A stretch of 64,000 nucleotides of DNA from Escherichia coli. GTDB taxonomy: Bacteria > Pseudomonadota > Gammaproteobacteria > Enterobacterales > Enterobacteriaceae. The notes below the pieces were generated by a model that saw only the letters and a list, made by a program, of their open reading frames with translations, searched no databases and was not told the DNA's origin. Position numbers and translations under genes: made by a program. The stretch is taken from assembly GCF_003019035.1 (NCBI RefSeq), contig NZ_CP027447.1; one strand, written 5' to 3'. This document shows positions 5,321 through 33,967 of the stretch, piece by piece; the stretch's first letter is position 1, and the number at the start of each line of letters is the position of its first letter.

Positions 5321-5371
5321 TTGTCTTTTTCCTGCCGGGGAGTCTGGTGGGAGTATATCACTGCTTCTTAT

Positions 5372-16703: not shown

Positions 16704-16870
16704 CCCGACTCCTTATTTATAAAGATAACTTATCGCTATTAGTTTACCTGAAGTTAACAGCTAAGTACTTACCTAATAATGCATCATAAGATGCTTGCAC
16801 AGGACTTACGTAACCATGCCCCATTTGGTACTATCTAAGCCCTTTTCACTACAAAGAAGTAATGCCTACT

Positions 16871-18945: not shown

Positions 18946-19044
18946 AAATTCCTAAAGTTGTTTTCTTGCGATTTTGTCTCTCTCTAACCCGCATAAATAC
19001 TGGTAGCATCAGCATTCAACTGGATAAAATTACAGGGATGCAGA

Positions 19045-22000
19045 ATGAGACACTTTATCTATCAGGACGAAAAATCACATAAATTCTGGGCGGTGGAGCA
19101 GCAGGGAAACGAGTTGCATATCTGTTGGGGAAAAGTTGGCACCAAAGGGCAAAACCAAGTAAAAAGTTTTGCGGATGCTGCGGCAGCGGCAAAAGCGGAG
19201 CTTAAGCTGATCGCGGAGAAGGTGAAGAAGGGATATGTGGAGCAAGCGAAGGATAATTCTTTGCAACCTTCCCAAACGGTAACGGACTCTCTCAAGGTAG
19301 CGGACTTATCCACCATTATTCAGGAACAACCCTCTTTCGTAGCAGAAACCCGTGCGGCTGACAAAAATACAGATGCTGTTTTACCGTGGCTGGCAAAAGA
19401 TATTGCTGTCGTTTTTCCGCTTGAAGTCGTACCCACCACCTTAAGCCATCGCCGCTTTCCCGGAGATCCTGTTACACCTGTAGATAAATTAACCCAGTTA
19501 CGTCGCTTAGCCTGTGGCGTGTCGCAACGGGATAACAAAACAGCTACATTTGACTTCAGCGCCTGTACTTTAGAGTGGCAAAACTTCATCGCTCAGGCGA
19601 TCGATCTGATTAACAGCCCGAAAACGACAAAATTACCATCACCGGTAATGGCTGTACTCGCGGCACTTGAACTGCACTGCACGAGATATAAAGAGCGTGA
19701 GGATGTTATGGATCAGATTATTCAGGAAGGCGGTCTGGAATATGCTACTGATGTAATAATACATCTTCAACAAATATCTATTGAATGGGATTATGTCAAC
19801 AATAATATTGTTTTCCTGTCGTCTGGCATTTCACCTGATTACTTGCAGCAATATTCCAGCTTTGAATTACGCCTACGTAAACATTTATCACTGGCGGAAG
19901 AGTCTCTCTGGCAAAAATGTGCACAAAAACTTATTGCCGCAGTTCCACATATTCCAGAATGGCGGCAACCATTAATTGCTTTGTTATTACCCGAAAAACC
20001 AGAAATTGCACATGAAATTGCCCAGCGTCTACTGGGGCAAAAGAAATTACCCTCGCTTGAGTGGCTAAAAATAGTGGCGACTGATGAGCACATTCTTGCC
20101 TCATTAGAAAAATATCACGAGCCATATGCCATTTTTGATGATTACTATTGTGGTGCGATATGGTCAGCCACCGTATTACAGGAGCAAGGTGTTGCAGCCC
20201 TGCCCCGATTTGCACCCTATGTCGCAAGTGACTACTGCGCCGATGTGTTGAGTCATATCAATCATCCGTTCGCATTAACACTGCTTATACGTGTAGCCGG
20301 GCATACTAAACGCTGTCACGATCGAATGACGAAAGCCTGCGCTGCGTTCCCACACGCAGCACTGGCAGCACTGGCGGAACTTCTAGTGCAAAAAGAAGAG
20401 AATAGTTGGCGCATTATGCTAATGACGATGCTTATCTCGCAACCTACACTAGCAGAACAGGTCATTCCCTGGCTTTCGACACCCGCAGTTGCAGTGCTGA
20501 AATCATGCCAGCAACAACTGAAACAGCCCTCAAACCATGCCAGTGCCGATCTACTGCCGGCCATAGTAGTCTCCCCACCATGGCTTTCGAAAAAGAAAAA
20601 ATCGCCGATTCCGGTGCTTGATTTAGCACCGCTCAACCTCGAATCCATATGCACAATAACCGACACAGAAGCTAAAGAGTTTCAAACTCATTGGGACTGG
20701 GAACCGCATAAGCCAGGTGAAGGTGCTAAAGATTTCCTTTACTCGCTGGGGTATCGCCGCTGGGATTTTGACACATATAAATATATCGGCGCTTCTGACT
20801 CGGCAATTGACGCATGGGAACGTGAGGACTTCGCTACACTCATCCAAATGTTTAAAGCCCACCATGCACCGTATCAGGGGGAGTGGCATCTCAACTCACT
20901 TCCCTTTTTACCTATGCAAAAAGCGATTAAACTATGGGAATTTCTCAGCAAAGAGCCGCATACCGCGGTAAAACCTGTCATGCTTTATTTGCGACTGGCA
21001 GGTATGAGTGGTTTTCTACACTCGTTTTCACGCTACCCTCAAGAAGGTTTTGCGGTTGCTAATTATTTTGCCGCAACGGAACTGGCTCCTGCCGTCGCCC
21101 GCGCCTTTAACAAACTCAAAACTCTACGACAAGACGCCCGCACCTGGCTGCTGAAATATCCGGAACATGCCATTACCGGCCTGTTGCCTGCGGCACTCGG
21201 CAAAGCCGGTGAATCCCAGGATAACGCCCGTGCCGCTTTACGTATGTTGATTGAAAATGGTTATCCGTCATTACTGCAAGAAATCGCCCAGCGTTATAAC
21301 CAGCCGGAAGTAACCGATGCGGTGAACGCTCTACTTGCGCTCGATCCCTTAGATAATCACCCGACTAAAATCCCGACACTTCCGGCCTTTTATCAGCCAT
21401 CGCTCTGGACGCGCCCGGTATTAAAAGCAAACGCCCAATCACTGCCAGATAGCGCCCTCTTCCACCTCGGTGAAATGCTCCGCTTCCCTCAGGAAGATAC
21501 GCTGTATCCGGGGTTATTACAGGTGAAAGACGCCTGTACTGCCGACTCACTGGCTGAGTTTGCCTGGGATCTGTTTACCGCCTGGCAGACCGCTGGCGTG
21601 CCGTCGAAAGAGAGCTGGGCGTTCACTGCATTAGGTGTTCTTGGCAACGATGACACCGCCCGCAAACTGACGCCATTAATCCGCGCCTGGCCTGGCGAAT
21701 CTCAGCATAAACGTGCCACCGTTGGGTTGGATATTCTCGCTGCTATCGGCAGCGATATCGCCCTGATGCAGCTTAACGGCATCGCCCAGAAACTGAAATT
21801 CAAAGCCTTACAGGAGCGGGCGAAAGAAAAAATTGCCGACATTGCCGAAAGTCGCGAACTCACAGTGGCAGAACTTGAAGATCGGTTAGCACCGGATCTC
21901 GGTCTGGATGATAACGGTTCGCTGCTGCTGGATTTCGGGCCACGGCAGTTCACCGTCAGCTTTGATGAAACCTTAAAACCGTTTGTGCGTGATGCTTCCG

Positions 22001-22833: not shown

Positions 22834-22842
22834 GGAAAGAGC

Positions 22843-25800
22843 ATGGACAAGGAATTACCGTGGCTGGCGGATAACGCGCAACTGGAACTGAAATATAAAA
22901 AGGGTAAAACACCACTCAGCCATCGCAATTGGCCGGGTGAACCGGTGCCTGTTATCACTGAAAGCATCATCCAGACACTGGGTGATGAATTGCTACACAT
23001 TGCTGAGAAGAAAAAAAACATTGTCTGGCGTTATGATAATTTTTCACTGGAGTGGCAGTCCGCCATCACGCAGGCCATCAACTTGATCGGCGAACACAAA
23101 CCCTCAATCCCGGCCCGGACAATGGCGGCGCTAGCCTGTATCGCGCAAAATGATAGCCAACAGTTACTCGACGAAATCGTCCAACAAGAGGGACTGGAAT
23201 ATGCGACTGAAGTGGTGATTGCACGCCAGTTTATTGTACGGTGTTATGAGAGTGATCCTCTGGTAGTAACATTGCAGTATCAGAAGGAGGACTATGGCTA
23301 TGGCTATGGCTATGGCTATGGCTATGGCTATGGTTATCGCTCAGAAACCTATAACGAATTCGATCTCCGACTGCGTAAGCATCTCTCTCTGGCAGAGGAA
23401 AGCTGCTGGCAGCGTTGCGCCGACAAACTCATTGCCGCACTGCCAGGACTACCCCAAGTTCGCCGTCCTTTTATTGCACTCATCCTCCCGGAAAAACCAG
23501 AAATCGCCAATGAGTTGGTAGGCCTTGAATGCCCGTGGACTCATTTTCATTCTAAGGAGTGGTTAAAAGTTGTTGCTACTGACCACAGGGCAGTGGGAAA
23601 ACTCGAACGCTACTGGAGCCAGGATATATTTAGCGATCGCGAAGCCAGCTACATGTCGCATGAAAACCACTTCGGCTACGCGGCCTGCGCCGCCCTTTTG
23701 CGCGAACAAGGAATTGCAGCCGTTCCACGCCTCGCGATGTATGCCCATAAAGAAGATTGCGGTAGCCTGCTGGTACAAATTAACCATCCGCAGGTCATCC
23801 GCACCCTGCTGTTAGTTGCTGATAAAAACAAACCCAGCCTGCAACGTGTGGCTAAATACAGTAAAAACTTCCCCCATGCGACGCTTGCCGCACTGGCAGA
23901 GCTTCTGGCGTTAAAAGAACCGCCTGCACGCCCTGGTTATCCAATCATCGAAGACAAAAAGCTGCCTGCACAGCAAAAAGCTCGAGATGAATACTGGCGT
24001 ACGCTGTTACAAACGCTGATGGCATCGCAGCCACAACTGGCAGAAGAGGTGATGCCGTGGTTAAGTACTCAAGCCCAGGCAGTGCTGAATAGTTATTTAT
24101 CGGCACCGCCCAAAACGGTTATTGATAGCACCGATAACATCCAAATGCCTGAAATCCTCGTTTCACCACCGTGGCGTAGTAAGAAAAAAATGACAGTTCC
24201 ACGTCTTGATTTGGCACCGTTCGAATTAACGCCGCAAGTTTACTGGCAACCAGGCGAACGAGAGAGGCTTGCCGCCACTGAGTCTGCCCGTTATTTCAGC
24301 ACGGAATCTCTTGCGGAACGCATGGAACAAAAAAGTGGACGAGTTGTATTACAGGAGCTGGGTTTTGGAGATGATGTATGGCTGTTTTTGAATTATATAC
24401 TCCCCGGAAAACTGGATGCTGCACGCAATTCACTCATTGTTCAGTGGCATTACTACCCAGGGCGGGTTGAAGAGATCATGAATGGCTGGAGCTCCCCGGA
24501 AGCTCAATTAGCAGAACAGGCGCTTCGCAACGGTCACGTAGAAGTGTTAATTAACATATGGGAAAATGACAGCTACTCACGCTATCGTCGGGAAAAGAGT
24601 ATCTGGAACCTGTATTTATTGGCGCAGTTGCCGCGTGAGATGGCTTTGACTTTCTGGCTACGTATCAATGAGAAAAAGCATCTGTCTGCGGGTGAGGACT
24701 ATTATCTCAGTATCTTCGGATTGGATGCTCTACCAGGTCTGCTGTTGGCTTTTTCACATCGTCCAAAAGAAACATTTCCATTAATTTTAAATTTCGGCGC
24801 AACAGAACTGGCCCTGCCCGTTGCCCGCGTCTGGCGACGTTTCGCGGCGCAGCGTGATCTGGCTCGCCAGTGGATTTTACATTGGCCGGAACATACAGCT
24901 ACTGCACTTATCCCTCTTGTCTTCACCAAATCCAGCGATAATAGCGAAGCTGCATTACTTGCCCTGCGTTTACTTTACGAACAGGGACATGGCGAGTTAC
25001 TGCAAACCGTGGCAAACCGCTGGCAGCGTACAGATGTGTGGCCTGCCCTGGAGCAATTACTTAAACAGAGTCCAATAGAGATTTACCCGACACGCATTCC
25101 AAAAGCCCCTGATTTCTGGCAGCCGGCAATGTGGTCCAGGCCGCGCCTTATCACGAATAATCAACCTGTTACCGATGACGCTCTGGAAATTATCGGCGAA
25201 ATGCTGTGCTTTACCCAGGGCGGACGTTTTTATAGCGGACTGGAACAACTGAAAACTTTCTGCCAGCCGCAAACGCTGGCAGCTTTTGCCTGGGATCTCT
25301 TCACCGCGTGGCAACAAGCTGGTGCTACCGCAAAAGACAACTGGGCATTTCTGGCGTTAAGTCTCTTTGGCGACGAAAGCACGGCACGGGATCTGACGAC
25401 ACAGATCCTTGCCTGGCCACAAGAGGGCAAATCTGCCCGTGCTGTCAGTGGTCTGAATATACTTACTCAGATGAATAATGATATGGCACTGATACAGCTG
25501 CATCATATATCGCAACGGGCGAAATCCCGCCCCTTACGTGATAACGCGGCGGAATTTCTTCAGGTGGTCGCAGAAAATCGTGGGCTAAGCCAGGAACAGT
25601 TAGCGGACAGATTAGTCCCAACACTGGGTCTTGATGATCCGCAGGCGTTGAGTTTTGATTTTGGTCCCCGGCAGTTTACCGTTCGCTTTGATGAAAACCT
25701 TAACCCGGTTATCTTTGATCAGCAAAACGTTCGCCAGAAAAGCGTTCCCCGGTTGCGCGCCGATGACGATCAACTGAAAGCGCCCGAGGCACTGGCCCGA

Positions 25801-26505
25801 CTAAAAGGGCTAAAAAAAGATGCCACTCAGGTGAGCAAAAACCTGCTCCCACGTCTTGAAACTGCCCTGCGCACCACCCGACGCTGGTCGCTGGCAGATT
25901 TTCATTCTCTGTTTGTTAATCATCCCTTTACCCGCCTGGTTACTCAGCGATTGATATGGGCGGTTTATCCGGCAAATGAACCGCGTCGTTTACTCAACGC
26001 CTTTCGTGTGGCCGCTGAGGGGGAGTTCTGCAATGAGCAAGATGAGCCAATTGACCTGCCTGCCGATGCTCTGATTGGCATTGCCCACCCGTTAGAAATG
26101 ACAGCAGAAATGCGCAGTGAATTTGCACAGCTTTTTGCCGATTACGAAATTATGCCGCCTTTTCGCCAGTTGACGCGGCGCACAGTGCTGCTCACGCCTG
26201 ACGAGTCAGCCAGTAATAGTTTGAATCGCTGGGAAGGTAAATCTGCTACCGTTGGGCAGCTTATGGGAATGCGATACAAAGGCTGGGAGTCAGGCTATGA
26301 GAACGCATTTGTCTATGACCTGGGCGAGTACCGGCTGGTCCTTAAGTTTTCATCCGGTTTTAACCACTACAATGTTGATAGCAAAGCGCTAATGAGCTTC
26401 CGTTCTCTTCATGTATACCGTGACAATAAATCTGTCACTTTTGCCGAACTTGATGTGTTTGATTTGAGTGAAGCGTTAAGCGCACCCGACGTCATTTTCC
26501 ATTAA
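22843..26505 (+). CDS. yehI: Giant uncharacterised protein (1220 aa), tandem paralog of molR; C-terminal region of the type annotated DUF4132
   Basis: AAGGAAAGA RBS; shares blocks with molR (..QEGLEYATEVVI.., ..DLRLRKHLSLAEES.., ..GPRQFTVRFDE.., ..LFADYEIMPPFRQL..); contains in-frame Tyr-Gly repeat. Confidence 0.88.
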   Translation: MDKELPWLADNAQLELKYKKGKTPLSHRNWPGEPVPVITESIIQTLGDELLHIAEKKKNIVWRYDNFSLEWQSAITQAINLIGEHKPSIPARTMAALACIAQNDSQQLLDEIVQQEGLEYATEVVIARQFIVRCYESDPLVVTLQYQKEDYGYGYGYGYGYGYGYRSETYNEFDLRLRKHLSLAEESCWQRCADKLIAALPGLPQVRRPFIALILPEKPEIANELVGLECPWTHFHSKEWLKVVATDHRAVGKLERYWSQDIFSDREASYMSHENHFGYAACAALLREQGIAAVPRLAMYAHKEDCGSLLVQINHPQVIRTLLLVADKNKPSLQRVAKYSKNFPHATLAALAELLALKEPPARPGYPIIEDKKLPAQQKARDEYWRTLLQTLMASQPQLAEEVMPWLSTQAQAVLNSYLSAPPKTVIDSTDNIQMPEILVSPPWRSKKKMTVPRLDLAPFELTPQVYWQPGERERLAATESARYFSTESLAERMEQKSGRVVLQELGFGDDVWLFLNYILPGKLDAARNSLIVQWHYYPGRVEEIMNGWSSPEAQLAEQALRNGHVEVLINIWENDSYSRYRREKSIWNLYLLAQLPREMALTFWLRINEKKHLSAGEDYYLSIFGLDALPGLLLAFSHRPKETFPLILNFGATELALPVARVWRRFAAQRDLARQWILHWPEHTATALIPLVFTKSSDNSEAALLALRLLYEQGHGELLQTVANRWQRTDVWPALEQLLKQSPIEIYPTRIPKAPDFWQPAMWSRPRLITNNQPVTDDALEIIGEMLCFTQGGRFYSGLEQLKTFCQPQTLAAFAWDLFTAWQQAGATAKDNWAFLALSLFGDESTARDLTTQILAWPQEGKSARAVSGLNILTQMNNDMALIQLHHISQRAKSRPLRDNAAEFLQVVAENRGLSQEQLADRLVPTLGLDDPQALSFDFGPRQFTVRFDENLNPVIFDQQNVRQKSVPRLRADDDQLKAPEALARLKGLKKDATQVSKNLLPRLETALRTTRRWSLADFHSLFVNHPFTRLVTQRLIWAVYPANEPRRLLNAFRVAAEGEFCNEQDEPIDLPADALIGIAHPLEMTAEMRSEFAQLFADYEIMPPFRQLTRRTVLLTPDESASNSLNRWEGKSATVGQLMGMRYKGWESGYENAFVYDLGEYRLVLKFSSGFNHYNVDSKALMSFRSLHVYRDNKSVTFAELDVFDLSEALSAPDVIFH
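23293..23334 (+). repeat. In-frame hexanucleotide microsatellite (TATGGC)6 + TATGGT encoding a (Tyr-Gly)n tract inside yehI
   Basis: Six perfect TATGGC units 23293-23328 plus one TATGGT, in the yehI reading frame; absent from the paralogous position in molR. Confidence 0.9.
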
Positions 26506-26510
26506 AACAC

Positions 26511-26542
26511 AGCGGGCAGTGATGCGACTGCCCGTTATTAAC
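26511..26542 (+). terminator. Hairpin downstream of yehI (possible terminator/attenuator)
   Basis: CGGGCAGT-gatgcg-ACTGCCCG stem-loop (26513-26534) followed by TTATTAAC. Confidence 0.5.
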
Positions 26543-26565
26543 ACGACCTGCCACCGGGGGAAGCG

Positions 26566-26886
26566 ATGATCGTGCAAAAAGAGCTGGTCACTATTTACGA
26601 TTATGAGGCCCCTGTACCTGAAGAGCCGTTTTCCTTCAGACTTGAGATCCATAAATGCTCTGAATTATTTACAGGTTCCATCTACCGGCTGGAGCGATTC
26701 CGGCTACATCCAACATTTCATCAACGTGATCGAGAGGATATCGACCCGCTAATAAATGATGCGTTGATTTATATAAGAGATGAGTTTATTGATGAGCGAA
26801 AATTACGGGGCGAATCACCAGAAACGGTAATAGCCATTTTTAATCGTGAACTACAGAATATATTCAACCAAGAAATAGAAAAATAG
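26566..26886 (+). CDS. yehK: Small acidic protein of unknown function, 106 aa
   Basis: ORF with GGGGGAAGCG upstream; no recognisable motif; recalled as YehK. Confidence 0.8.
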   Translation: MIVQKELVTIYDYEAPVPEEPFSFRLEIHKCSELFTGSIYRLERFRLHPTFHQRDREDIDPLINDALIYIRDEFIDERKLRGESPETVIAIFNRELQNIFNQEIEK

Positions 26887-26894
26887 CTTTATTA

Positions 26895-26920
26895 AAGGGG
26901 GGAAACGGTATTCCCCCTTA
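26895..26920. terminator. Bidirectional GC hairpin between convergent yehK and the small toxin-like gene
   Basis: GGGGGG-aaacggtatt-CCCCC stem-loop flanked by A/T; placed between the 3' ends of yehK (+) and the 29-codon ORF (-). Confidence 0.5.
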
Positions 26921-26940
26921 GATGCGTTTCAATTTGCCCG

Positions 26941-27030
26941 TTACTTCAACAAATCAATCAGCCGTAACAGAGCCACTAATAACTCCAGTACGGCAATGAG
27001 CACGGTTAACTTTTGTGTCAGCGTGTCCAT
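26941..27030 (-). CDS. zorO: 29-aa hydrophobic peptide, type I toxin-like (ZorO-like)
   Basis: Minus-strand ATG (27028-27030) with AAGGAGAG SD; translates to MDTLTQKLTVLIAVLELLVALLRLIDLLK, a single predicted TM helix; matches my recollection of ZorO from O157:H7; long structured 5' leader with an antisense target site. Confidence 0.65.
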   Translation of the reverse strand: MDTLTQKLTVLIAVLELLVALLRLIDLLK

Positions 27031-27211
27031 CCGCTCTCCTTATTAAGGAGCGCAACACCAGCATCTTACCCTTACACTGCCTGTCGATACTGGTTTACGT
27101 ATGTTGGACCACGATGTTGCACTCCGGATCAGGGCACTACCTGCGGCACCACCCGTCCGGTAGCCAGGACTTGAAATGGGTTCGATCCGGCGCAACGTCC
27201 CAACAGTCAGG

Positions 27212-27262
27212 ATTATAAATCTCATTATCTTAATTGCAACGGGGTCCACCGATGGTTATAAT
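27212..27262. promoter_or_regulatory. Back-to-back sigma70-like promoters sharing one palindromic -35 hexamer (TTGCAA): minus-strand promoter for the toxin mRNA and plus-strand promoter for the antisense sRNA
   Basis: Plus: TTGCAA (27234-27239) -17 nt- TATAAT (27257-27262); minus: TTGCAA -16 nt- TATAAT (complement of 27212-27217); the minus promoter predicts a ~170-nt 5' UTR for the toxin. Confidence 0.55.
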
Positions 27263-27268
27263 TCGTTC

Positions 27269-27352
27269 GTTGGAACACGATGTTGCACAGGCCGTGGTGT
27301 TAGGCCTGAAAGTAGTAAATAAAAGAACCTGCCTCACCAGCAGGTTTTTTTA
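27269..27352 (+). ncRNA. orzO: Candidate antitoxin sRNA (OrzO-like), ~80 nt, divergent from the toxin gene
   Basis: Starts ~7 nt after TATAAT; 5' seed GTTGGAACACGATGTTGCAC (27269-27288) is 19/20 identical to 27103-27122, so it is complementary to the toxin mRNA leader; internal hairpin CAGGCC..GGCCTG; ends in intrinsic terminator. Confidence 0.55.
27326..27352 (+). terminator. Rho-independent terminator of the candidate sRNA
   Basis: AACCTGC-ctcacca-GCAGGTT stem-loop followed by TTTTTTT. Confidence 0.8.
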
Positions 27353-27462
27353 TTTACTATGATCTGCTTTCCAGATATTTTCCGCTCAAACAACTAATGC
27401 GCCAAACATTTATTGCGCGTAAAATATCGTTTATTTCATTAATACATTTCAGGGATGAATAT

Positions 27463-28551
27463 ATGTCACCGCAGAATAATCATCTGCAGCGTCCGCCTGC
27501 CGCTGTGTTATACGCCGATGAACTGGCAAAATTAAAACAAAATGATCACGCACCTTGCCCGCCCGGTTGGCAGTTAAGTTTGCCTGCGGCCCGTGTTTTT
27601 ATCCTTGGCGACGAAGCACAAAATATTAGCCGTAAAGTCGTGATTAGCCCCTCCGCTGTCGAACGCATGTTAGTCACTCTCGCTACCGGGCGCGGTTTGA
27701 TGTTGGTGGGGGAACCTGGCACCGCAAAATCGCTCCTGTCTGAATTACTGGCAACCGCTATTAGCGGCGATGCCGGGTTAACCATCCAGGGCGGCGCATC
27801 TACTACTGAAGATCAAATCAAGTACGGCTGGAACTACGCCCTGCTTATCAACCATGGTCCGTCAACGGAAGCACTGGTCCCTGCCCCGCTTTACCAGGGA
27901 ATGCGCGACGGCAAAATCGTCCGTTTTGAAGAGATAACGCGTACACCGCTGGAAGTACAAGACTGTCTGTTAGGTATGCTTTCTGACAGGGTGATGACGG
28001 TGCCGGAGCTCACCGCTGAAGCCAGTCAGCTCTATGCGCGGGAAGGCTTTAATATTATTGCCACTGCCAATACCCGCGATCGCGGCGTCAATGAAATGAG
28101 TGCTGCGCTAAAGCGTCGTTTCGATTTTGAAACTGTCTTTCCGATTATGGATTTCGCTCAGGAGCTGGAGCTTGTCGCCAGTGCTTCGGCGCGTTTGCTG
28201 GCCCATAGCGGTATTCCGCATAAAGTGCCTGACGCGGTACTGGAGTTACTGGTCCGCACCTTCCGCGATCTGCGTGCCAACGGCGAAAAGAAAACGTCAA
28301 TGGATACACTAACAGCGATTATGTCCACCGCTGAAGCCGTGAACGTGGCCCACGCTGTGGGCGTCCGCGCCTGGTTTTTAGCGAATCGCGCAGGTGAGCC
28401 AGCCGATCTGGTGGACTGTATTGCCGGAACCATCGTCAAAGATAACGAAGAAGATCGCGCGCGTCTGCGCCGTTACTTCGAACAGCGAGTCGCCACACAT
28501 AATGAAGCTCACTGGCAGGCTTATTATCAAGCTCGCCACCGCCTGCCGTGA
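27463..28551 (+). CDS. yehL: MoxR-like AAA+ ATPase (CbbQ/NirQ/NorQ-type), 362 aa
   Basis: Walker A LMLVGEPGTAKS, Walker B-like KIVRFEEITR; start ATG 27463 (MSPQNNHLQRPP..) chosen over ORF-track 27397. Confidence 0.9.
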   Translation: MSPQNNHLQRPPAAVLYADELAKLKQNDHAPCPPGWQLSLPAARVFILGDEAQNISRKVVISPSAVERMLVTLATGRGLMLVGEPGTAKSLLSELLATAISGDAGLTIQGGASTTEDQIKYGWNYALLINHGPSTEALVPAPLYQGMRDGKIVRFEEITRTPLEVQDCLLGMLSDRVMTVPELTAEASQLYAREGFNIIATANTRDRGVNEMSAALKRRFDFETVFPIMDFAQELELVASASARLLAHSGIPHKVPDAVLELLVRTFRDLRANGEKKTSMDTLTAIMSTAEAVNVAHAVGVRAWFLANRAGEPADLVDCIAGTIVKDNEEDRARLRRYFEQRVATHNEAHWQAYYQARHRLP

Positions 28552-28561
28552 GGAAAGATGC

Positions 28562-30841
28562 ATGAGCGAGCCGTTAATTGTCGGCATCCGGCATCATAGT
28601 CCGGCCTGCGCCCGGCTGGTGAAATCGTTAATCGAAAGCCAGCGGCCACGATACGTGTTGATTGAAGGCCCGGCTGATTTTAATGACCGGGTAGACGAAC
28701 TGTTGTTAGCCCACCAGCTTCCGGTAGCTATTTACAGTTATTGCCAGTATCAGGATGGTGCGGCCCCCGGGCGTGGTGCCTGGACGCCATTTGCTGAATT
28801 TTCGCCGGAGTGGCAGGCGCTACAAGCCGCACGTCGTATTCAGGCACAAACTTACTTCATCGATTTGCCTTGCTGGGCACAAAGTGAAGAAGAGGACGAT
28901 TCGCCTGATACGCAAGAGGAAAGCCAGACCTTGCTGCTGCGTGCCACCCGCATGGATAACAGCGACACCCTGTGGGATCACTTGTTCGAAGATGAAAGCC
29001 AGCAAACTGCATTACCCTCTGCACTGGCGCACTATTTTGCCCAACTGCGGGGCGACGCCTCCGGCGATGCACTCAATCGTCAGCGCGAAGCCTTTATGGC
29101 CCGCTGGATTGCATGGGCGATGCAGCAAAATAATGGCGACGTATTAGTCGTCTGCGGAGGCTGGCACGCTCCGGCACTGGCAAAAATGTGGCGCGAATGC
29201 CCGCAAGAAATTAACACGCCAGAATTGCTCTTACTGGATGATGCCGTTACAGGTTGCTATCTCACGCCATACAGTGAAAAGCGCCTTGATGTGCTGGCAG
29301 GATACCTTTCAGGAATGCCTGCCCCGGTCTGGCAAAACTGGTGCTGGCGGTGGGGCTTGCAGCAGGCAGGTGAACAACTGCTGAAAACGGTTCTTACCCG
29401 TTTGCGCCAGCACCACTTGCCTGCTTCAACAGCGGATATGGCTGCCGCTCATCTGCATGCGATGGCACTGGCACAGTTGCGCGGTCATACACTACCGTTA
29501 CGCACTGACTGGCTGGATGCCATAGCAGGATCGCTGATTAAAGAAGCCCTGAATGCGCCGTTGCCGTGGAGCTATCGCGGCGTTATTCATCCCGATACCG
29601 ATCCGATTCTGCTAACGTTGATAGACACATTAGCGGGTGACGGATTCGGTAAACTTGCCCCTTCTACGCCACAACCGCCTCTGCCAAAAGATGTCACCTG
29701 CGAACTGGAACGTACCGCAATCTCTCTTCCGGCGGAGCTTACCTTAAATCGCTTTACCTCCGATGGACTGGCGCAAAGTCAGGTGTTACATCGGCTGGTA
29801 ATACTGGAGATCCCAGGGGTTGTGCGCCAGCAGGGAAGTACACTGACACTTGCAGGCAACGGTGAAGAACGCTGGAAATTAACCCGCCCGCTTAGCCAAC
29901 ATGCGGCATTAATTGAGGCCGCCTGCTTTGGTGCCACACTCCAGGAAGCCGCACGCCATAAATTAGAAGCCGATATGCTGGACGCGGGTGGAATCGGCAG
30001 TATCACCACATGTCTTAGCCAGGCGGCGTTAGCGGGTCTGGCGTCCTTCAGTCAACAATTACTGGAGCAACTTACATTATTAATCGCCCAGGAAAATCAG
30101 TTTGCCGAAATGGGCCAGGCGCTGGAAGTGCTATACGCCTTATGGCGGCTGGATGAAATTAGCGGTATGCAAGGCGCGCAGATATTACAGACGACGTTAT
30201 GCGCAGCTATCGATCGCACACTCTGGCTGTGTGAATCCAACGGCAGACCGGATGAAAAGGAGTTTCACGCTCACCTGCATAGCTGGCAAGCGCTTTGCCA
30301 TATCCTGCGCGATCTACATAGCGGCGTTAATTTACCCGGCGTTTCGCTTTCTGCGGCGGTAGCCTTACTGGAGCGCCGCAGTCAGGCGATTCATGCCCCG
30401 GCGCTGGATCGCGGCGCGGCTCTTGGCGCACTAATGCGTCTGGAACATCCCAACGCCAGTGCCGAAGCGGCGCTGACGATGCTGGCGCAGTTATCCCCGG
30501 CACAATCCGGCGAGGCGCTGCACGGTTTGCTGGCATTAGCCCGTCATCAACTGGCCTGTCAGCCGGCATTTATCGCCGGTTTCAGTAGTCATTTAAATCA
30601 ACTGAGTGACGACGATTTTATTAACGCCCTGCCCGATTTACGCGCGGCGATGGCCTGGCTACCACCACGAGAACGCGGGACGCTGGCGCATCAGGTGCTT
30701 GAGCATTACCAGCTCGCACAGCTTCCCATTTCAGCGCTGCAAATGCCGTTGCATTGTCCACCGCAAGCCATTGCACATCATCAACAACTCGAACAGCAGG
30801 CACTGGCATCGCTGCAACACTGGGGAGTTTTCCATGTCTGA
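28562..30841 (+). CDS. yehM: Large uncharacterised protein (759 aa), second gene of the yehLMPQ cassette
   Basis: ATG 10 nt after yehL stop with GAGGAAAGA RBS; Ala/Leu-rich, no motif I can recognise by eye; stop overlaps yehP start. Confidence 0.85.
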   Translation: MSEPLIVGIRHHSPACARLVKSLIESQRPRYVLIEGPADFNDRVDELLLAHQLPVAIYSYCQYQDGAAPGRGAWTPFAEFSPEWQALQAARRIQAQTYFIDLPCWAQSEEEDDSPDTQEESQTLLLRATRMDNSDTLWDHLFEDESQQTALPSALAHYFAQLRGDASGDALNRQREAFMARWIAWAMQQNNGDVLVVCGGWHAPALAKMWRECPQEINTPELLLLDDAVTGCYLTPYSEKRLDVLAGYLSGMPAPVWQNWCWRWGLQQAGEQLLKTVLTRLRQHHLPASTADMAAAHLHAMALAQLRGHTLPLRTDWLDAIAGSLIKEALNAPLPWSYRGVIHPDTDPILLTLIDTLAGDGFGKLAPSTPQPPLPKDVTCELERTAISLPAELTLNRFTSDGLAQSQVLHRLVILEIPGVVRQQGSTLTLAGNGEERWKLTRPLSQHAALIEAACFGATLQEAARHKLEADMLDAGGIGSITTCLSQAALAGLASFSQQLLEQLTLLIAQENQFAEMGQALEVLYALWRLDEISGMQGAQILQTTLCAAIDRTLWLCESNGRPDEKEFHAHLHSWQALCHILRDLHSGVNLPGVSLSAAVALLERRSQAIHAPALDRGAALGALMRLEHPNASAEAALTMLAQLSPAQSGEALHGLLALARHQLACQPAFIAGFSSHLNQLSDDDFINALPDLRAAMAWLPPRERGTLAHQVLEHYQLAQLPISALQMPLHCPPQAIAHHQQLEQQALASLQHWGVFHV

Positions 30842-31970
30842 ACTGAACGATCTTCTGACCACCCGTGAGCTACAACGCTGGCGATTAATTCTTGGCGAAG
30901 CGGCAGAAACGACGCTTTGTGGGCTGGATGACAACGCCCGGCAGATAGACCACGCGCTGGAGTGGCTGTACGGGCGCGATCCTGAACGGCTCCAGCGTGG
31001 TGAACGCTCTGGTGGATTAGGTGGCTCAAATCTCACCACCCCTGAGTGGATCAACAGTATTCACACGCTGTTTCCGCAACAGGTGATTGAGCGACTGGAA
31101 AGCGATGCCGTACTGCGCTACGGCATTGAAGATGTGGTGACGAATCTCGACGTGCTGGAACGTATGCAGCCTTCTGAAAGCCTGCTACGCGCCGTTTTGC
31201 ACACCAAACATCTGATGAATCCCGAAGTACTGGCTGCCGCCCGCCAGATAGTGCGCCAGGTTGTTGAAGAAATTATGGCTCGACTGGCAAAGGAAGTTCG
31301 TCAGGCTTTTTCTGGTGTCCGCGATCGCCGTCGCCGCTCATTTATTCCACTGGCGCGAAACTTTGATTTCAAAAGTACTCTGCGCGCCAACCTGCAACAC
31401 TGGCACCCGCAACACGGCAAGTTGTATATCGAATCCCCCCGCTTTAACAGCCGCATTAAACGCCAAAGCGAACAATGGCAACTGGTCTTACTGGTTGATC
31501 AAAGCGGATCAATGGTGGACTCGGTGATCCACTCAGCGGTGATGGCGGCCTGTTTATGGCAGTTACCCGGTATTCGTACCCATCTGGTGGCGTTTGACAC
31601 CAGCGTGGTTGATCTCACGGCAGACGTTGCCGATCCGGTAGAGTTATTAATGAAAGTGCAATTAGGCGGCGGAACCAATATCGCCAGTGCCATGGAATAT
31701 GGTCGGCAACTTATTGAACAACCAGCGAAAAGCGTCATTATCCTCGTGAGTGATTTTTATGAAGGGGGTTCATCATCATTGCTGACGCATCAGGTGAAAA
31801 AGTGTGTCCAGAGCGGCATCAAAGTGCTGGGGCTGGCAGCGCTCGACAGCACCGCAACGCCTTGCTATGACCGCGATATGGCCCAGGCGCTGGTTAATGT
31901 TGGCGCACAAATAGCCGCAATGACACCGGGTGAACTGGCTACCTGGCTTGCGGAGAATTTGCAGTCATGA
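30834..31970 (+). CDS. yehP: von Willebrand factor A (VWA) domain protein with MIDAS motif, 378 aa
   Basis: ATGTCTGA overlap with yehM stop; MIDAS-like LVLLVDQSGSM (DxSxS); ORF-track 5' extension rejected. Confidence 0.9.
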   Translation: MSELNDLLTTRELQRWRLILGEAAETTLCGLDDNARQIDHALEWLYGRDPERLQRGERSGGLGGSNLTTPEWINSIHTLFPQQVIERLESDAVLRYGIEDVVTNLDVLERMQPSESLLRAVLHTKHLMNPEVLAAARQIVRQVVEEIMARLAKEVRQAFSGVRDRRRRSFIPLARNFDFKSTLRANLQHWHPQHGKLYIESPRFNSRIKRQSEQWQLVLLVDQSGSMVDSVIHSAVMAACLWQLPGIRTHLVAFDTSVVDLTADVADPVELLMKVQLGGGTNIASAMEYGRQLIEQPAKSVIILVSDFYEGGSSSLLTHQVKKCVQSGIKVLGLAALDSTATPCYDRDMAQALVNVGAQIAAMTPGELATWLAENLQS

Positions 31971-33967
31971 ATTCACTACGTCCGGAATTATTAGAACTGA
32001 CGCCGCAGGCCCTGACGGCGTTAAGCAATGCCGGTTTTGTTAAGCGCAGTCTTAAGGAACTGGAAAATGGCAACGTCCCGGAAATCAGCCATGAGAACGG
32101 CGCTTTAATCGCCACCTTCAGTGACGGTGTCCGTACCCAACTGGCGAGCGGTCAGGCACTGAAAGAGGCCCGGTGCAGTTGCGGGGCCAGCGGCATGTGC
32201 CGCCATCGCGTGATGCTGGTGTTAAGTTATCAGCGACTTTGCGCCACCACTCAGCCCACGGAAAAAGAAGAAGAGTGGCAGCCTGCAATCTGGCTGGAAG
32301 AACTGGCTACCCTGCCCGATGCCACCCGCAAACGTGCACAGGCGCTGGTCGCTAAAGGCATCACCATTGAGTTATTCTGTGCGCCGGGCGAAATTCCCTC
32401 AGCCCGCTTACCGATGAGTGACGTGCGTTTTTATTCCCGCAGCAGCATTCGCTTCGCCCGCTGTGATTGCATTGAAGGAACGCTGTGTGAACATGTCGTA
32501 CTGGCGGTACAGGCCTTTGTCCAGGCCAAAACTCAGCAGGCGGAATTTACTCATTTAATCTGGCAGATGCGCAGCGAACACGTCACATCATCTGACGATC
32601 CGTTTGCCAGCGAAGAAGGCAACGCGTGTCGTCAATATGTTCAGCAATTAAGCCAGGCATTATGGCTTGGCGGCATCAGCCAGCCGCTTATTCACTACGA
32701 GGCCGCTTTCAGCCGCGCGCAGCAAGCGGCAGAGGCCTGCAACTGGCGCTGGGTGAGTGAGTCACTACGACAGCTACGGGCAAGCGTTGATGCCTTCCAC
32801 GCCCGCGCCAGTCACTATCATGCCGGAGAATGCTTACGTCAGCTTGCGGTATTAAACAGTCGATTAAATTGCGCACAAGAGATGGCGCGCCGCGACAGTA
32901 TCAGTGAAGTTCCTCCCATGCCGTGGCGAACGGTGGTTGGCGCAGGCATTGCTGGCGAAGCAAAGCTTGATCATTTGCGGCTGGTGTCGCTAGGTATGCG
33001 TTGCTGGCAGGATATTGAGCAGTATGGTTTACGCATCTGGTTTACCGATCCCGACACCGGCAGTATTTTGCACCTTTCGCGCAGTTGGCCGCGAAGTGAA
33101 CAGGAAAACTCACCGGCAGCGACGCGTCGGCTGTTGAGTTTTCAGGCAGGCGCGCTGGCGGGTGGACAAATTGTTTCACAGGCAGCGCGTCGCAGTGCCG
33201 AAGGCGAACTGCTATTCGCGACCCGCAACCGCTTAAGTAGCGTTGTGCCGCTGTCGCCAGACGCCTGGAAAATGCTGAGTGCGCCGCTGCGCCAGCCAGG
33301 CATTGTGGCTTTACGTGAATATTTACGCCAGCGTCCCCCCGCCTGCATACGACCACTCAACCAGGTCGATAACTTATTTATTCTGCCAGTCGCTGAGTGT
33401 ATTTCACTCGGTTGGGATAGCAGCCGCCAGACACTGGATGCGCAGGTAATCAGCGGCGAAGGTGAAGATAACGTGCTGACATTATCCCTACCAGCCTCTG
33501 CCTGTTCGCCCTTTGCTGTTGAACGCATGGCGGCGCTTTTGCAACAAACAGACGACCCCGTGAGTCTGGTTTCTGGCTTTGTCAGCTTTGTAGAGGGGCA
33601 ATTGACACTGGAACCACGGGTGATGATGACAAAAACCCGCGCCTGGGCGCTGGACGCAGAAACTGCGCCTGTAGCACCGCTACCTTCTGCCAGCGTTTTG
33701 CCTGTGCCGTCTACCGCTCATCAGTTGCTGATGCGCTGCCAGGCGTTACTTATTCAACTGCTCCATAACGGCTGGCGCTATCAGGAACAGAGTGCTATTG
33801 GTCAGGCAGAGTTGCTGGCGAATGACCTCACCGCGGTGGGTTTTTATCGGCTGGCACATGTGTTGGGACAATTTCGTAATACAGAAAGCGAGGCACGGGT
33901 AGAAGCAATGAATAACGGTGTTTTGCTTTGCGAACAATTATTCCCCATGCTTCAGCAACAAGGATGA
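31967..33967 (+). CDS. yehQ: SWIM zinc-finger protein, 666 aa
   Basis: ATGA overlap with yehP stop; two CxCxnCxH SWIM-type motifs (ARCSCGASGMCRHRV and ARCDCIEGTLCEHVV) in the N-terminal third. Confidence 0.88.
   Translation: MNSLRPELLELTPQALTALSNAGFVKRSLKELENGNVPEISHENGALIATFSDGVRTQLASGQALKEARCSCGASGMCRHRVMLVLSYQRLCATTQPTEKEEEWQPAIWLEELATLPDATRKRAQALVAKGITIELFCAPGEIPSARLPMSDVRFYSRSSIRFARCDCIEGTLCEHVVLAVQAFVQAKTQQAEFTHLIWQMRSEHVTSSDDPFASEEGNACRQYVQQLSQALWLGGISQPLIHYEAAFSRAQQAAEACNWRWVSESLRQLRASVDAFHARASHYHAGECLRQLAVLNSRLNCAQEMARRDSISEVPPMPWRTVVGAGIAGEAKLDHLRLVSLGMRCWQDIEQYGLRIWFTDPDTGSILHLSRSWPRSEQENSPAATRRLLSFQAGALAGGQIVSQAARRSAEGELLFATRNRLSSVVPLSPDAWKMLSAPLRQPGIVALREYLRQRPPACIRPLNQVDNLFILPVAECISLGWDSSRQTLDAQVISGEGEDNVLTLSLPASACSPFAVERMAALLQQTDDPVSLVSGFVSFVEGQLTLEPRVMMTKTRAWALDAETAPVAPLPSASVLPVPSTAHQLLMRCQALLIQLLHNGWRYQEQSAIGQAELLANDLTAVGFYRLAHVLGQFRNTESEARVEAMNNGVLLCEQLFPMLQQQG

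What the first reader, a model, noticed from the sequence alone, without database searches (positions are those of the whole stretch)
19045..33967. Possible single functional island: WGR/DUF4132 giants + yehK + type I toxin + MoxR/VWA/SWIM cassette
All protein genes from molR to yehQ are on the same strand and are poorly characterised; only the small toxin-like gene is inverted. The domain set (nucleic-acid-binding WGR, SWIM zinc fingers, MoxR ATPase, VWA) resembles the component repertoire of NTP-dependent sensor-effector systems. If the linkage molR/yehI-like with yehLMPQ-like is conserved across taxa, the block may be one system rather than unrelated neighbours.
Basis: inference. Interest (0 to 1): 0.6.

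Follow-up and report, generated by a model that had tools for sequence, protein, structure and literature searches.

The report
Conserved five-gene MoxR–vWA–DUF4132 system
Five uncharacterised E. coli gene families (molR/yehI plus yehL, yehM, yehP and yehQ) stay together as one cassette across at least five bacterial phyla, so they probably form one ATP-driven machine of unknown function, while the small yehK gene and the toxin gene between them are later Escherichia-only insertions.

Summary
Window 19045-33967 is the E. coli molR–yehI–yehK–(zorO/orzO)–yehLMPQ block.

The central idea holds. Of 73 YehM (DUF5682) loci from other species with enough flank, 69 carry a DUF4132 gene within about 9 kb, and 67 of those are contiguous and co-oriented. 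The DUF4132 gene sits upstream of yehL in most taxa, downstream of yehQ in Burkholderia, and between yehM and yehP on Rhizobiaceae plasmids. The cassette occurs in Proteobacteria, Myxococcota, Actinomycetota and Bacillota.

The linkage runs mainly one way. Distant DUF4132 proteins stand alone. Distant MoxR–DUF5682–vWA cassettes carry SWIM+DUF5691 instead of DUF4132.

yehK and the ZorO–OrzO type I toxin–antitoxin are Escherichia-only inserts that split the cassette into two transcription units.

New here:
- YehM has a ChaN/TraB/TIKI-like fold with an invariant GxxH…E…GxxH motif.
- YehQ has two invariant SWIM fingers.
- The YehL Walker motifs and the YehP MIDAS motif are intact.
- The published molR SOS box is conserved in three enterobacterial genera.

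Function is inferred: a sensor–effector machine linked to DNA damage or nucleic acid. No match to known defence systems was found. I rate it a new variant of MoxR–vWA systems, of moderate interest.

The parts
19020..19035 (+). LexA (SOS) box CTGGATAAAATTACAG, 10 nt upstream of the molR start codon
   Evidence: Sequence and pattern search. The same box lies upstream of the first DUF4132 gene in E. coli GN04275, Klebsiella grimontii and Intestinirhabdus alba, against a background of 0.018 per 400 nt. molR is listed among genes with a known SOS box (PMC6590174).
19045..22833 (+). molR-like gene, intact here (1262 aa): WGR domain, about 900 aa of helical repeats, then the C-terminal DUF4132 module. 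Proposed sensor or adaptor subunit.
   Evidence: Pfam WGR 3.7e-17 and DUF4132 1.8e-51. The WGR region matches PDB 2ra8 at 4.6e-18. The C-terminal 600 aa model has pLDDT 90 and matches only HEAT-like repeats in the PDB.
22843..26505 (+). yehI, a tandem paralog of molR (1220 aa) with DUF4132 but no WGR. It starts 9 nt after the molR stop.
   Evidence: Pfam DUF4132 1.2e-46 with no WGR hit. Tandem DUF4132 paralogs are also present in Klebsiella, Massilia, Duganella and others.
26566..26886 (+). yehK (106 aa), a lineage-specific insertion that is not part of the conserved system
   Evidence: No hit in Pfam, NCBIfam or PADLOC. tblastn hits only in Escherichia loci L002-L004. It has the highest dN/dS of the block, 0.23-0.33.
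26941..27030 (-). zorO-type type I toxin ORF (29 aa), a lineage-specific insertion
   Evidence: ORF and peptide. ZorO is a 29-aa toxin (PMC6669753 abstract).
27031..27204 (-). zorO 5' untranslated region (about 174 nt), containing the OrzO target site at 27098-27122
   Evidence: A sigma-70-like promoter on the - strand at 27239-27212 puts the start about 174 nt before the ATG. This equals the published 174-nt UTR (PMC5397157). A 25-nt direct repeat links 27098-27122 to 27264-27288.
27212..27262 (.). Back-to-back divergent promoters for zorO (-) and orzO (+)
   Evidence: Both score 10 of 12 consensus matches.
27276..27351 (+). OrzO antitoxin small RNA with its terminator hairpin (27326-27346) and T-run
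   Evidence: Rfam RF02083, 98.9 bits, E 9.5e-16. Terminator-like hairpin found.
27463..28551 (+). yehL, a MoxR-type AAA+ ATPase (362 aa from the annotated start; a longer ORF begins at 27397)
   Evidence: Pfam AAA_5 6.6e-34. Walker A GEPGTAKS, Walker B VRFEEITR and the ATANTRDRG...KRRF motif are conserved at 90% or more in 79 sequences. dN/dS 0.02-0.06.
28562..30841 (+). yehM (DUF5682, 759 aa): N-terminal ChaN/TraB/TIKI/EreA-like domain followed by a HEAT-like solenoid. Proposed catalytic subunit.
30834..31970 (+). yehP, a CoxE-type von Willebrand A protein (378 aa) that overlaps yehM by 8 nt
   Evidence: Pfam VWA_CoxE 1.1e-71. The MIDAS residues DQSGSM, GGGT and SDF are conserved at 90% or more in 75 sequences.
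31967..33967 (+). yehQ (666 aa), with two SWIM zinc fingers and an unassigned C-terminal region. It overlaps yehP by 4 nt.
   Evidence: C70, C72, C78, H80 and C166 are invariant; C168, C174 and H176 are at least 90% conserved. Pfam SWIM E 0.0056. No PDB relative by sequence.

Best explanation
The block holds one conserved five-component system plus two unrelated insertions.

The system:
- one or more WGR–helical-repeat–DUF4132 proteins (MolR, with paralog YehI);
- a MoxR-type AAA+ ATPase (YehL);
- a DUF5682 protein with a ChaN/TraB/TIKI-like hydrolase-type domain and a HEAT-like tail (YehM);
- a CoxE-type vWA protein with an intact metal-binding MIDAS site (YehP);
- a double-SWIM zinc-finger protein (YehQ).

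Shown: the five families are inherited as a tightly packed, co-oriented cassette across phyla, and the motifs needed for ATP hydrolysis, metal binding and zinc binding are conserved.

Inferred mechanism:
1. The YehL ring and the YehP vWA partner form an ATP-driven remodelling core, as in other MoxR–vWA pairs.
2. The DUF4132 proteins dock through their conserved C-terminal module. Their WGR domain and variable N-terminal repeats act as sensors or adaptors for a nucleic-acid or DNA-damage-related cue.
3. YehQ contributes DNA or substrate binding.
4. YehM is the catalytic output, a metal-dependent hydrolase or protease.

In Enterobacteriaceae the DUF4132 genes are under SOS (LexA) control. In Escherichia, yehK and a ZorO–OrzO type I toxin–antitoxin were inserted between the DUF4132 genes and yehL. 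The yehLMPQ part therefore has its own H-NS-silenced promoter.
For: Linkage:
- 80 YehM loci were retrieved from a one-genome-per-species collection. Of the 73 with at least 3 kb of upstream flank, 62 have a DUF4132 gene directly upstream of yehL on the same strand, mostly with a gap of 15-250 bp. Five Burkholderia loci have it directly downstream of yehQ, 2 have it divergent upstream, and 4 have none.
- The order is identical on a Bacillus mycoides plasmid and a Streptomyces linear plasmid.
- On a conjugative Sinorhizobium plasmid the DUF4132 gene lies between DUF5682 and vWA.
- Three of five sampled DUF4132 representatives from metagenomes show the same cassette.
- No sixth gene family recurs in the flanks.
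- Gene junctions overlap or are at most 10 nt apart in the window.

Co-inheritance: pairwise distance matrices correlate at r 0.89-0.975 within YehLMPQ and 0.72-0.80 between these and the DUF4132 C-terminus.

Active-site integrity: Walker A and B and the MIDAS motif are conserved at 90% or more. YehM carries an invariant GxRH…E…GGxH motif and a ChaN/TraB fold. YehQ has two SWIM fingers.

Sensor-like behaviour of the DUF4132 component:
- 1 to 3 or more tandem paralogs.
- The highest dN/dS among the five conserved families, 0.11-0.20.
- The N-terminal 700 aa of MolR are replaced in Escherichia sp. MOD1-EC7003 (dN 0.24-0.43), while the C-terminal 560 aa are conserved (dN 0.02-0.06).

DNA-damage link:
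- An SOS box at 19020-19035 is conserved in three enterobacterial genera.
- molR is listed among genes with a known SOS box.
- A DUF4132 protein and a WGR protein of D. radiodurans are derepressed when the DNA-damage repressor DdrO is depleted.

Insertions: YehK occurs only in Escherichia. ZorO/OrzO is a characterised, autonomous type I toxin–antitoxin.
Against: - No experiment bears on function.
- No PADLOC defence model matches any of the seven proteins.
- The five annotated cassette neighbourhoods contain no recognisable defence genes.
- The block is core, not accessory, in E. coli: about 5,370-5,410 of 5,426 complete genomes. It keeps the same yehS/btsSR neighbours in Klebsiella and Intestinirhabdus.
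- All genes are under purifying selection, with dN/dS at most 0.2 for the five conserved families.
- The α/β part of DUF4132 has no solved structural relative, so its docking role is a guess.
- In K-12 the two halves are regulated differently.
- The system appears dispensable. molR is disrupted in K-12, yehM and yehK are frameshifted in strain GN04275, and a successful ST131 clone carries a transposon in the DUF4132 region.
Confidence: 0.55

Rival explanations
1. It is an anti-phage or anti-plasmid immune system in the strict sense. The DUF4132 paralogs sense invader nucleic acid or proteins. The MoxR–vWA core then licenses YehM to cleave a host or invader target, giving abortive infection or growth arrest.
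For: - Patchy distribution across phyla and presence on plasmids, including a conjugative one.
- Paralog expansion and allelic replacement of the putative sensor region.
- H-NS silencing of yehLM.
- Frequent pseudogenes.
- Stand-alone DUF4132 genes sit next to Wadjet JetABCD plus a GIY-YIG nuclease, a RES toxin pair, and BrnT/VapC toxin–antitoxin genes.
- Its architecture is analogous to the MoxR–vWA conflict systems of Kaur et al. 2020 (PMC7159879).
Against: - No PADLOC hit.
- No defence genes beside any of the annotated cassettes.
- Fixed chromosomal position and near-universal presence in E. coli.
- No canonical toxic effector domain.
- dN/dS well below 1.
- Not mentioned in the Kaur et al. 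paper.
Confidence: 0.25
2. It is a housekeeping-type MoxR–vWA chaperone or maturation module, like CoxD/CoxE, NorQ/NorD, CbbQ/CbbO or RavA/ViaA. It would assemble or repair a large protein or metallo-cofactor complex. The HEAT-rich DUF4132, DUF5682 and SWIM proteins would be scaffolds or adaptors. The old name 'molybdate metabolism regulator' might reflect this.
For: - YehP belongs to the CoxE-type vWA family, and YehL matches MoxR/GvpN-type ATPases.
- Strong purifying selection on YehL and YehP.
- Stable vertical inheritance in Enterobacteriaceae.
- ChaN, the best structural match of YehM, is a haem-binding protein.
- The established behaviour of MoxR–vWA pairs (general knowledge).
Against: - No client enzyme gene is conserved next to the cassette.
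- Distribution is sparse: 270 relatives among about 100,000 species genomes under the pattern scan. This is odd for a maturation factor.
- SOS control, WGR and SWIM domains point to nucleic acids.
- The D. radiodurans study saw no change in molybdenum genes.
- The system is dispensable in successful clones.
Confidence: 0.17
3. The whole interval, including yehK and the ZorO toxin, is one functional island, with ZorO as the killing effector.
For: Physical contiguity in E. coli. A membrane toxin would be a plausible abortive-infection effector.
Against: - YehK and zor–orz are absent from every non-Escherichia cassette.
- ZorO–OrzO has its own divergent promoters and is a self-contained, characterised toxin–antitoxin.
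- The yehK–yehL spacer differs in length between E. coli strains, about 580 bp here and 780 bp in GN04275, measured to the annotated yehL start.
Confidence: 0.03
4. molR/yehI and yehLMPQ are unrelated neighbours.
For: Separate promoters and regulators in K-12. Many distant DUF4132 proteins stand alone.
Against: 95% co-occurrence from the cassette side in four phyla, with three different gene orders and overlapping junctions.
Confidence: 0.02

Closest known systems
MoxR AAA+ / vWA chaperone pairs (RavA–ViaA, CoxD–CoxE, NorQ–NorD, CbbQ–CbbO); the YehL branch of MoxR ATPases (from memory, Snider & Houry 2006)
   Same: An AAA_5 MoxR-type ATPase is encoded beside a CoxE-type vWA protein with an intact MIDAS site. 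The genes are in an operon with overlapping junctions.
   Different: Three further obligatory partners (DUF4132, DUF5682, SWIM) and no conserved client enzyme gene. My recollection is that the yehM/P/Q neighbours of YehL were noted before. The DUF4132 partner and the fold of YehM were, as far as I could find, not described.
MoxR–vWA ternary conflict systems (Kaur, Burroughs, Iyer, Aravind 2020, PMC7159879)
   Same: A MoxR plus vWA core with extra sensor-like components. Distribution is patchy, the accessory component is variable, and a peptidase-type output is proposed.
   Different: No VMAP or iSTAND component was detected and no effector is fused to the vWA protein. YehL matches the bpMoxR Pfam model only weakly (E 0.0024). 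The paper contains no mention of SWIM, WGR, YehL or MolR.
TIKI / TraB / PrgY / GumN / ChaN / erythromycin-esterase superfamily
   Different: No significant sequence match to solved members. It is fused to about 500 aa of helical repeats, and no activity is known.
PARP-type WGR domains
   Same: MolR residues 6-69 match Pfam WGR (3.7e-17) and the WGR of PDB 2ra8. The match to PARP3 is weak, E 0.043.
   Different: No PARP catalytic domain. The WGR is fused to helical repeats and DUF4132.
ZorO–OrzO type I toxin–antitoxin of E. coli O157:H7 (PMC3919570, PMC5397157)
   Same: A 29-aa toxin ORF, an OrzO RNA at 98.9 bits, a 174-nt 5' UTR, and an antitoxin target repeat.
   Different: A single copy here, whereas EHEC has the duplicated zorO–orzO / zorP–orzP locus (abstract of PMC3919570). 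It is an insertion, not a component of the conserved system.

Membership tests
MoxR-type AAA+ ATPase with vWA partner | AAA_5 / MoxR ATPase domain | tested here: met
   Pfam AAA_5 6.6e-34.
MoxR-type AAA+ ATPase with vWA partner | Conserved Walker A and Walker B motifs | tested here: met
   GEPGTAKS and VRFEEITR are conserved at 90% or more in 79 sequences.
MoxR-type AAA+ ATPase with vWA partner | Adjacent vWA gene with a MIDAS motif (DxSxS…T…D) | tested here: met
   VWA_CoxE 1.1e-71. DQSGSM, GGGT and SDF are conserved at 90% or more in 75 sequences.
MoxR-type AAA+ ATPase with vWA partner | ATPase activity and ring assembly; interaction with the vWA protein | not testable with these tools
   Needs biochemistry.
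MoxR–vWA ternary conflict systems (Kaur et al. 2020) | Third component of the VMAP / iSTAND type | tested here: not met
   No such Pfam or NCBIfam hit on any of the seven proteins. The paper does not mention these genes.
MoxR–vWA ternary conflict systems (Kaur et al. 2020) | Effector domain fused to the vWA protein | tested here: not met
   In YehP only the VWA_CoxE region (151-372) is assigned, and no effector domain is found.
Known anti-phage defence systems (PADLOC-DB 2.0) | Match to a defence-system protein model | tested here: not met
   No family matched any of the seven proteins at E up to 0.01.
Known anti-phage defence systems (PADLOC-DB 2.0) | Location in defence islands | tested here: inconclusive
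   Cassette neighbourhoods with annotation show no defence genes. Three stand-alone DUF4132 genes lie beside Wadjet, RES or other toxin–antitoxin genes. The sample is too small for statistics.
TIKI/TraB/ChaN/EreA superfamily (YehM N-terminal domain) | Shared fold | tested here: met
TIKI/TraB/ChaN/EreA superfamily (YehM N-terminal domain) | GxxH … E … GxxH metal-site signature (definition recalled from memory) | tested here: met
   R10, H11, E35, G199 and H202 are invariant and G8 is at least 90% conserved in 25 diverse sequences. Their spatial clustering in the model could not be checked.
TIKI/TraB/ChaN/EreA superfamily (YehM N-terminal domain) | Significant sequence-profile match to family members | tested here: not met
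   A profile search of the PDB finds no ChaN, TraB or EreA sequence at E up to 10. Precomputed Pfam for homologs lists only PF18934.
SWIM zinc finger | CxCxnCxH motif | tested here: met
   Two copies. C70, C72, C78 and H80 are invariant; of the second finger, C166 is invariant and C168, C174 and H176 are at least 90% conserved. Pfam SWIM E 0.0056 and 0.21.
Zor–Orz type I toxin–antitoxin | Small hydrophobic toxin ORF plus divergently transcribed Orz sRNA that pairs with a long 5' UTR | tested here: met
   29-aa ORF. RF02083 at 98.9 bits against a threshold of 60. Divergent promoters give a 174-nt UTR. 25-nt target repeat.
E. coli SOS (LexA) regulon | LexA box (CTGT-N8-ACAG type) at the promoter | tested here: met
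   CTGGATAAAATTACAG at 19020-19035, one mismatch. It is conserved in Klebsiella and Intestinirhabdus and listed in PMC6590174. The pattern alone is not significant in the window: 4 found against 2.4 expected.
E. coli SOS (LexA) regulon | Induction by DNA damage in a LexA-dependent way | not testable with these tools
   Relies on the cited literature.

The most novel reading that the evidence does not exclude
The E. coli core genome carries a previously unrecognised, SOS-linked, five-component ATP-dependent surveillance system. Interchangeable WGR–DUF4132 paralogs act as nucleic-acid or damage sensors that dock onto a MoxR–vWA engine. The engine then releases a TIKI/TraB-like protease (YehM) as the effector. 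This would be a new class of bacterial immune or stress-signalling machine, found from Bacillota to Myxococcota.
Probability: 0.25. Interest if true: 0.8.

Novelty: new variant of a known kind. Interest (0 to 1): 0.55.

Why it matters
About 15 kb of the E. coli chromosome, present in about 99% of complete genomes, has no assigned function. Showing that five of its seven protein genes form one conserved cassette turns scattered 'y-genes' into a single testable system. It gives specific handles for experiments:
- a candidate catalytic site in YehM;
- the ATPase and MIDAS motifs;
- two SWIM fingers;
- an SOS box;
- a variable sensor-like subunit.

If the system proves to be a nucleic-acid or damage-triggered machine, it would extend the MoxR–vWA theme to a new architecture. 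It would also assign roles to three domains of unknown function (DUF4132, DUF5682, and by extension DUF5691). The DUF4132 C-terminal region alone matches about 4,900 protein clusters at 50% identity.

Tried and rejected
1. PADLOC scan of all seven proteins: no hits.
2. NCBIfam: only weak GvpN, MadB or McrB-type ATPase hits and a WGR-only hit.
3. Sequence-profile searches of the PDB:
   - YehM gave only spurious helical matches to ATP synthase b.
   - YehQ gave nothing.
   - MolR matched only in its WGR domain.
5. I tested whether DUF5691 of the Rhizobium/Deinococcus variant is a diverged DUF4132, or whether YehQ is SWIM plus DUF5691. hhalign probabilities were at most 8%, so both ideas are rejected as unsupported.
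6. Search for a sixth conserved flanking gene: none. The recurrent gene downstream of yehQ in Xanthomonadales and Comamonas is simply rpoH.
7. SOS boxes or Cheo boxes upstream of cassettes outside Enterobacteriaceae: none beyond background.
8. Phage origin: no tblastn hit of the DUF4132 module in 50,697 phage records. Full-length PHROG matches look like host DNA caught in prophage predictions.
9. The homolog search with full-length MolR returned only E. coli variants and was uninformative for distant relatives.
10. Literature searches for DUF5682, DUF5691, yehQ and yehLMPQ found nothing relevant. 'yehL' hits were mostly an author name.
11. Excess synonymous divergence of the island: rejected. 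metG next door has the same dS, about 0.2, against a typical E. coli strain, so the low nucleotide identity reflects the strain plus a higher dN in molR and yehI.

Full report
**What is there**

The window is E. coli chromosome. The interval 19045-33967 is 100% identical to strain SCU-301, where it is annotated metG | DUF4132 protein (molR) | yehI | yehK | yehL | yehM | yehP | yehQ | yehR. ORF coordinates match the finding exactly.

Domain assignments were confirmed:
- MolR has WGR (residues 6-69) and DUF4132 (986-1171).
- YehI has DUF4132 only.
- YehL is an AAA_5/MoxR-type ATPase.
- YehP is a CoxE-type vWA protein.
- YehQ has a weak Pfam SWIM hit but two conserved CxCx5CxH fingers.
- YehK matches nothing.

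The only gene on the other strand is a 29-codon ORF at 26941-27030. Next to it is an OrzO-P antitoxin RNA at 27276-27351, scoring 98.9 bits against a threshold of 60.

**The type I toxin**

Back-to-back promoters at 27212-27262 place the toxin mRNA start about 174 nt before its ATG. This is the published length of the zorO 5' UTR (PMC5397157). A 25-nt direct repeat (27098-27122 and 27264-27288) makes the 5' end of OrzO complementary to that UTR. This is therefore an intact, self-contained ZorO–OrzO locus. It is a known element.

**Is the linkage conserved?**

I aligned diverse YehM (DUF5682) homologs. I then scanned one genome for each of about 100,000 species. This gave 270 relatives, of which 80 loci were kept with up to 10 kb of flank.

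tblastn and an HMM built from the DUF4132 proteins gave the following. Of the 73 loci with at least 3 kb of upstream flank:
- 62 have a DUF4132 gene directly upstream of yehL on the same strand, mostly with a gap of 15-250 bp.
- 5 Burkholderia loci have it directly downstream of yehQ.
- 2 Myxococcota loci have it divergent upstream.
- 4 have none, and two of these also lack yehP and yehQ.

The taxa include Gamma- and Betaproteobacteria, Myxococcota and Actinomycetota.

Annotated plasmid records add three points:
- Bacillus mycoides has the identical order DUF4132–AAA–DUF5682–VWA–SWIM.
- A Streptomyces linear plasmid has the same order with 4-nt overlaps.
- A conjugative Sinorhizobium plasmid has the DUF4132 gene in the middle, AAA–DUF5682–DUF4132–VWA–SWIM.

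Three gene orders with preserved contiguity and orientation are strong evidence of functional coupling. No sixth gene family recurs in the flanks. Distance matrices correlate at r 0.89-0.975 among YehL, M, P and Q, and at 0.72-0.80 between these and the DUF4132 C-terminus.

**Limits of the linkage**

The DUF4132 C-terminal region hits about 4,900 clusters at 50% identity. Of 24 non-Escherichia plasmid records with a DUF4132 hit, 15 also carry the DUF5682 cassette nearby. Nine do not: Embleya, two Rhodococcus, Novosphingobium, three Acetobacter, Fulvitalea and Chondrinema. Most of the unlinked ones are distant, at 21-37% identity.

Of five metagenomic or genomic DUF4132 representatives, three were linked, one was unlinked and one contig was too short.

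Conversely, distant DUF5682 cassettes in Rhizobium and Deinococcus read SWIM–DUF5691–AAA–DUF5682–VWA, with no DUF4132. I could not show that DUF5691 is related to DUF4132 or to YehQ.

The ancient core is therefore MoxR + DUF5682 + vWA + SWIM. The WGR–DUF4132 protein is the fifth component of one large clade, which includes E. coli.

**What is not part of it**

YehK is found only in Escherichia loci. In Escherichia the DUF4132-to-yehL gap is 1-1.5 kb; elsewhere it is mostly under about 250 bp, up to about 540 bp. yehK and zorO–orzO are therefore lineage-specific insertions.

They split the cassette into two transcription units.
- Published work shows the molR promoter is activated by BglJ–RcsB and is not repressed by H-NS (PMC3950696).
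- yehL and yehM are derepressed in an hns stpA mutant, with H-NS bound at the intergenic region (PMC3686432).

**Anatomy and inferred mechanism**

- YehL keeps its Walker A (GEPGTAKS), Walker B (VRFEEITR) and downstream arginine-rich motifs. YehP keeps a complete MIDAS motif (DQSGSM…GGGT…SDF). All are conserved at 90% or more across 75-79 sequences.
- R10, H11, E35, G199 and H202 are invariant even in the Bacillus, Rhizobium and Deinococcus homologs. From memory, GxxH…E…GxxH is the signature of the TIKI/TraB protease-like superfamily. There is no significant sequence match to solved members, so this is a fold-level inference.
- The MolR C-terminal 600 residues model well (pLDDT 90). Only the helical repeats find PDB matches, so the α/β DUF4132 part has no solved relative.

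The DUF4132 component behaves like a variable subunit:
- There are 1 to 3 or more tandem paralogs per locus. At least one usually carries WGR, and 68 of 87 full-length proteins do.
- It has the highest dN/dS among the five conserved families: 0.11-0.20, against 0.02-0.06 for YehL.
- In Escherichia sp. MOD1-EC7003 the N-terminal 700 residues of MolR are a replaced allele (dN 0.24-0.43), while the C-terminal 560 residues are conserved (dN 0.02-0.06).

I read this as a conserved docking module plus an exchangeable recognition module.

**DNA-damage link**

A LexA-type box, CTGGATAAAATTACAG, lies at 19020-19035, 10 nt before the molR ATG. The same box precedes the first DUF4132 gene in another E. 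coli strain, in Klebsiella grimontii and in Intestinirhabdus alba. It does not occur in the other loci, and the background is 0.018 per 400 nt. molR is listed among E. coli genes with a known SOS box (PMC6590174; PMC11039860).

Independently, a DUF4132 protein (DRA0166) and a WGR protein (DR2173) of Deinococcus radiodurans are strongly derepressed when the DNA-damage repressor DdrO is depleted. Together with the WGR and SWIM domains, this points to a cue related to nucleic acid or DNA damage.

**Defence system or not?**

Evidence for:
- Patchy, partly plasmid-borne distribution.
- Paralog turnover.
- H-NS silencing.
- Pseudogenes: molR in K-12, yehM and yehK in GN04275, and a transposon in the DUF4132 region of a successful ST131 clone (PMC9334617).
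- Stand-alone DUF4132 genes beside Wadjet, RES or other toxin–antitoxin genes.

Evidence against:
- No PADLOC hit.
- No defence genes beside the annotated cassettes.
- Near-universal presence in E. coli at a fixed position, shared with Klebsiella and Intestinirhabdus.
- Purifying selection throughout.
- No phage copies.

I therefore commit only to 'ATP-driven sensor–effector machine, probably responding to DNA damage or foreign nucleic acid'. I keep strict immunity and a chaperone role as rivals.

**Comparison with known systems and novelty**

The closest known kinds are the MoxR–vWA chaperone pairs and the MoxR–vWA ternary conflict systems of Kaur et al. 2020. That paper does not mention SWIM, WGR, YehL or MolR. 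Searches of the held library found no paper that treats these genes as a system.

The yehLMPQ neighbourhood of the YehL-type MoxR ATPase has, to my recollection, been noted before. As far as I could determine, the following have not been described:
- the conserved WGR–DUF4132 partner;
- its three alternative positions in the cassette;
- the TIKI/TraB-like fold of DUF5682;
- the double SWIM finger;
- the DUF5691 variant.

I rate it a new variant of a known kind, with moderate interest (0.55). The function remains inferential.

Noticed in passing
window 23292-23341 (inside yehI): A hexanucleotide tandem repeat (CTATGG, about 8 copies) encodes a (YG)n run: EDYGYGYGYGYGYGYGYGYRSE. The otherwise identical SCU-301 record has 12 units against 7 perfect units here, which explains the 30-bp length difference. 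Other Escherichia sequences examined have no such repeat. It looks like a slippage-prone, in-frame, length-variable tract.
   Followed up: partly
window 31701-31716 (inside yehP): A published +1 ribosomal frameshift cassette of K-12 yehP (GTGGAGTATGGTCGGC, PMC2790909) reads ATGGAATATGGTCGGC in this strain. The Shine-Dalgarno-like GGAG element is lost, so the proposed frameshift signal is not conserved here.
   Followed up: partly
L083 5518-12451 (Rhizobium plasmid); L084 4759-12805 (Deinococcus plasmid): A variant cassette, SWIM – DUF5691 – AAA – DUF5682 – VWA, has no DUF4132 gene. DUF5691 showed no detectable relationship to DUF4132 or YehQ by hhalign.
   Followed up: partly
L086 (Rhodococcus sp. 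USK13 plasmid), L091 (R. pyridinivorans plasmid), L085 (Acetobacter plasmid): Stand-alone DUF4132 genes lie beside a Wadjet JetABCD-like cluster and a GIY-YIG nuclease, beside a RES-domain toxin pair, and beside BrnT/VapC toxin–antitoxin genes with ParB and a DEAD-box helicase, respectively.
   Followed up: partly
L004 360-4118 (Escherichia sp. MOD1-EC7003 molR): The N-terminal about 700 codons are a very divergent allele (dN 0.24-0.43, dS saturated). The C-terminal about 560 codons are close to the window (dN 0.02-0.06). This is a mosaic gene, probably produced by recombination.
   Followed up: partly
window 16862-18904 (metG) and the whole block: This strain is unusually divergent at this locus. 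metG has dS 0.21 against E. coli GN04275, and only 96 of 5,638 matching records are at least 99% identical. yehR, just downstream, is almost identical (dS 0.01). The region appears to be a recombination mosaic.
   Followed up: no
L089 9983-10299 and 12178-14450 (E. coli GN04275): yehK and yehM are annotated as frameshifted pseudogenes in this bloodstream isolate. The yehK–yehL spacer is 780 bp, against about 580 bp to the annotated yehL start in the window, which suggests a different zor–orz copy number.
   Followed up: no
PHROG families phrog_20839, 36602, 36295, 30700, 33984, 31592, 29006: These 'phage' families match the E. coli MolR, YehI, YehK, YehM, YehP and YehQ proteins over nearly their full length with very high scores. 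Yet the DUF4132 module has no tblastn hit in 50,697 phage genomes. They are probably host genes swept into prophage predictions.
   Followed up: partly
L096 7103-15155 (metagenome/genome contig): A 1673-aa protein with two DUF4132-matching stretches stands alone. It is flanked by a ParA/Mrp-like ATPase and a DinG-like (DEAD_2/Helicase_C_2) helicase. In E. coli the Mrp-family gene apbC also lies two genes upstream of molR.
   Followed up: no
L020 10633-11526 and eight other Xanthomonadales/Comamonas loci: rpoH (sigma-32) lies about 180 bp downstream of the yehQ homolog on the same strand in nine loci. This is probably a lineage-specific neighbour.
   Followed up: partly
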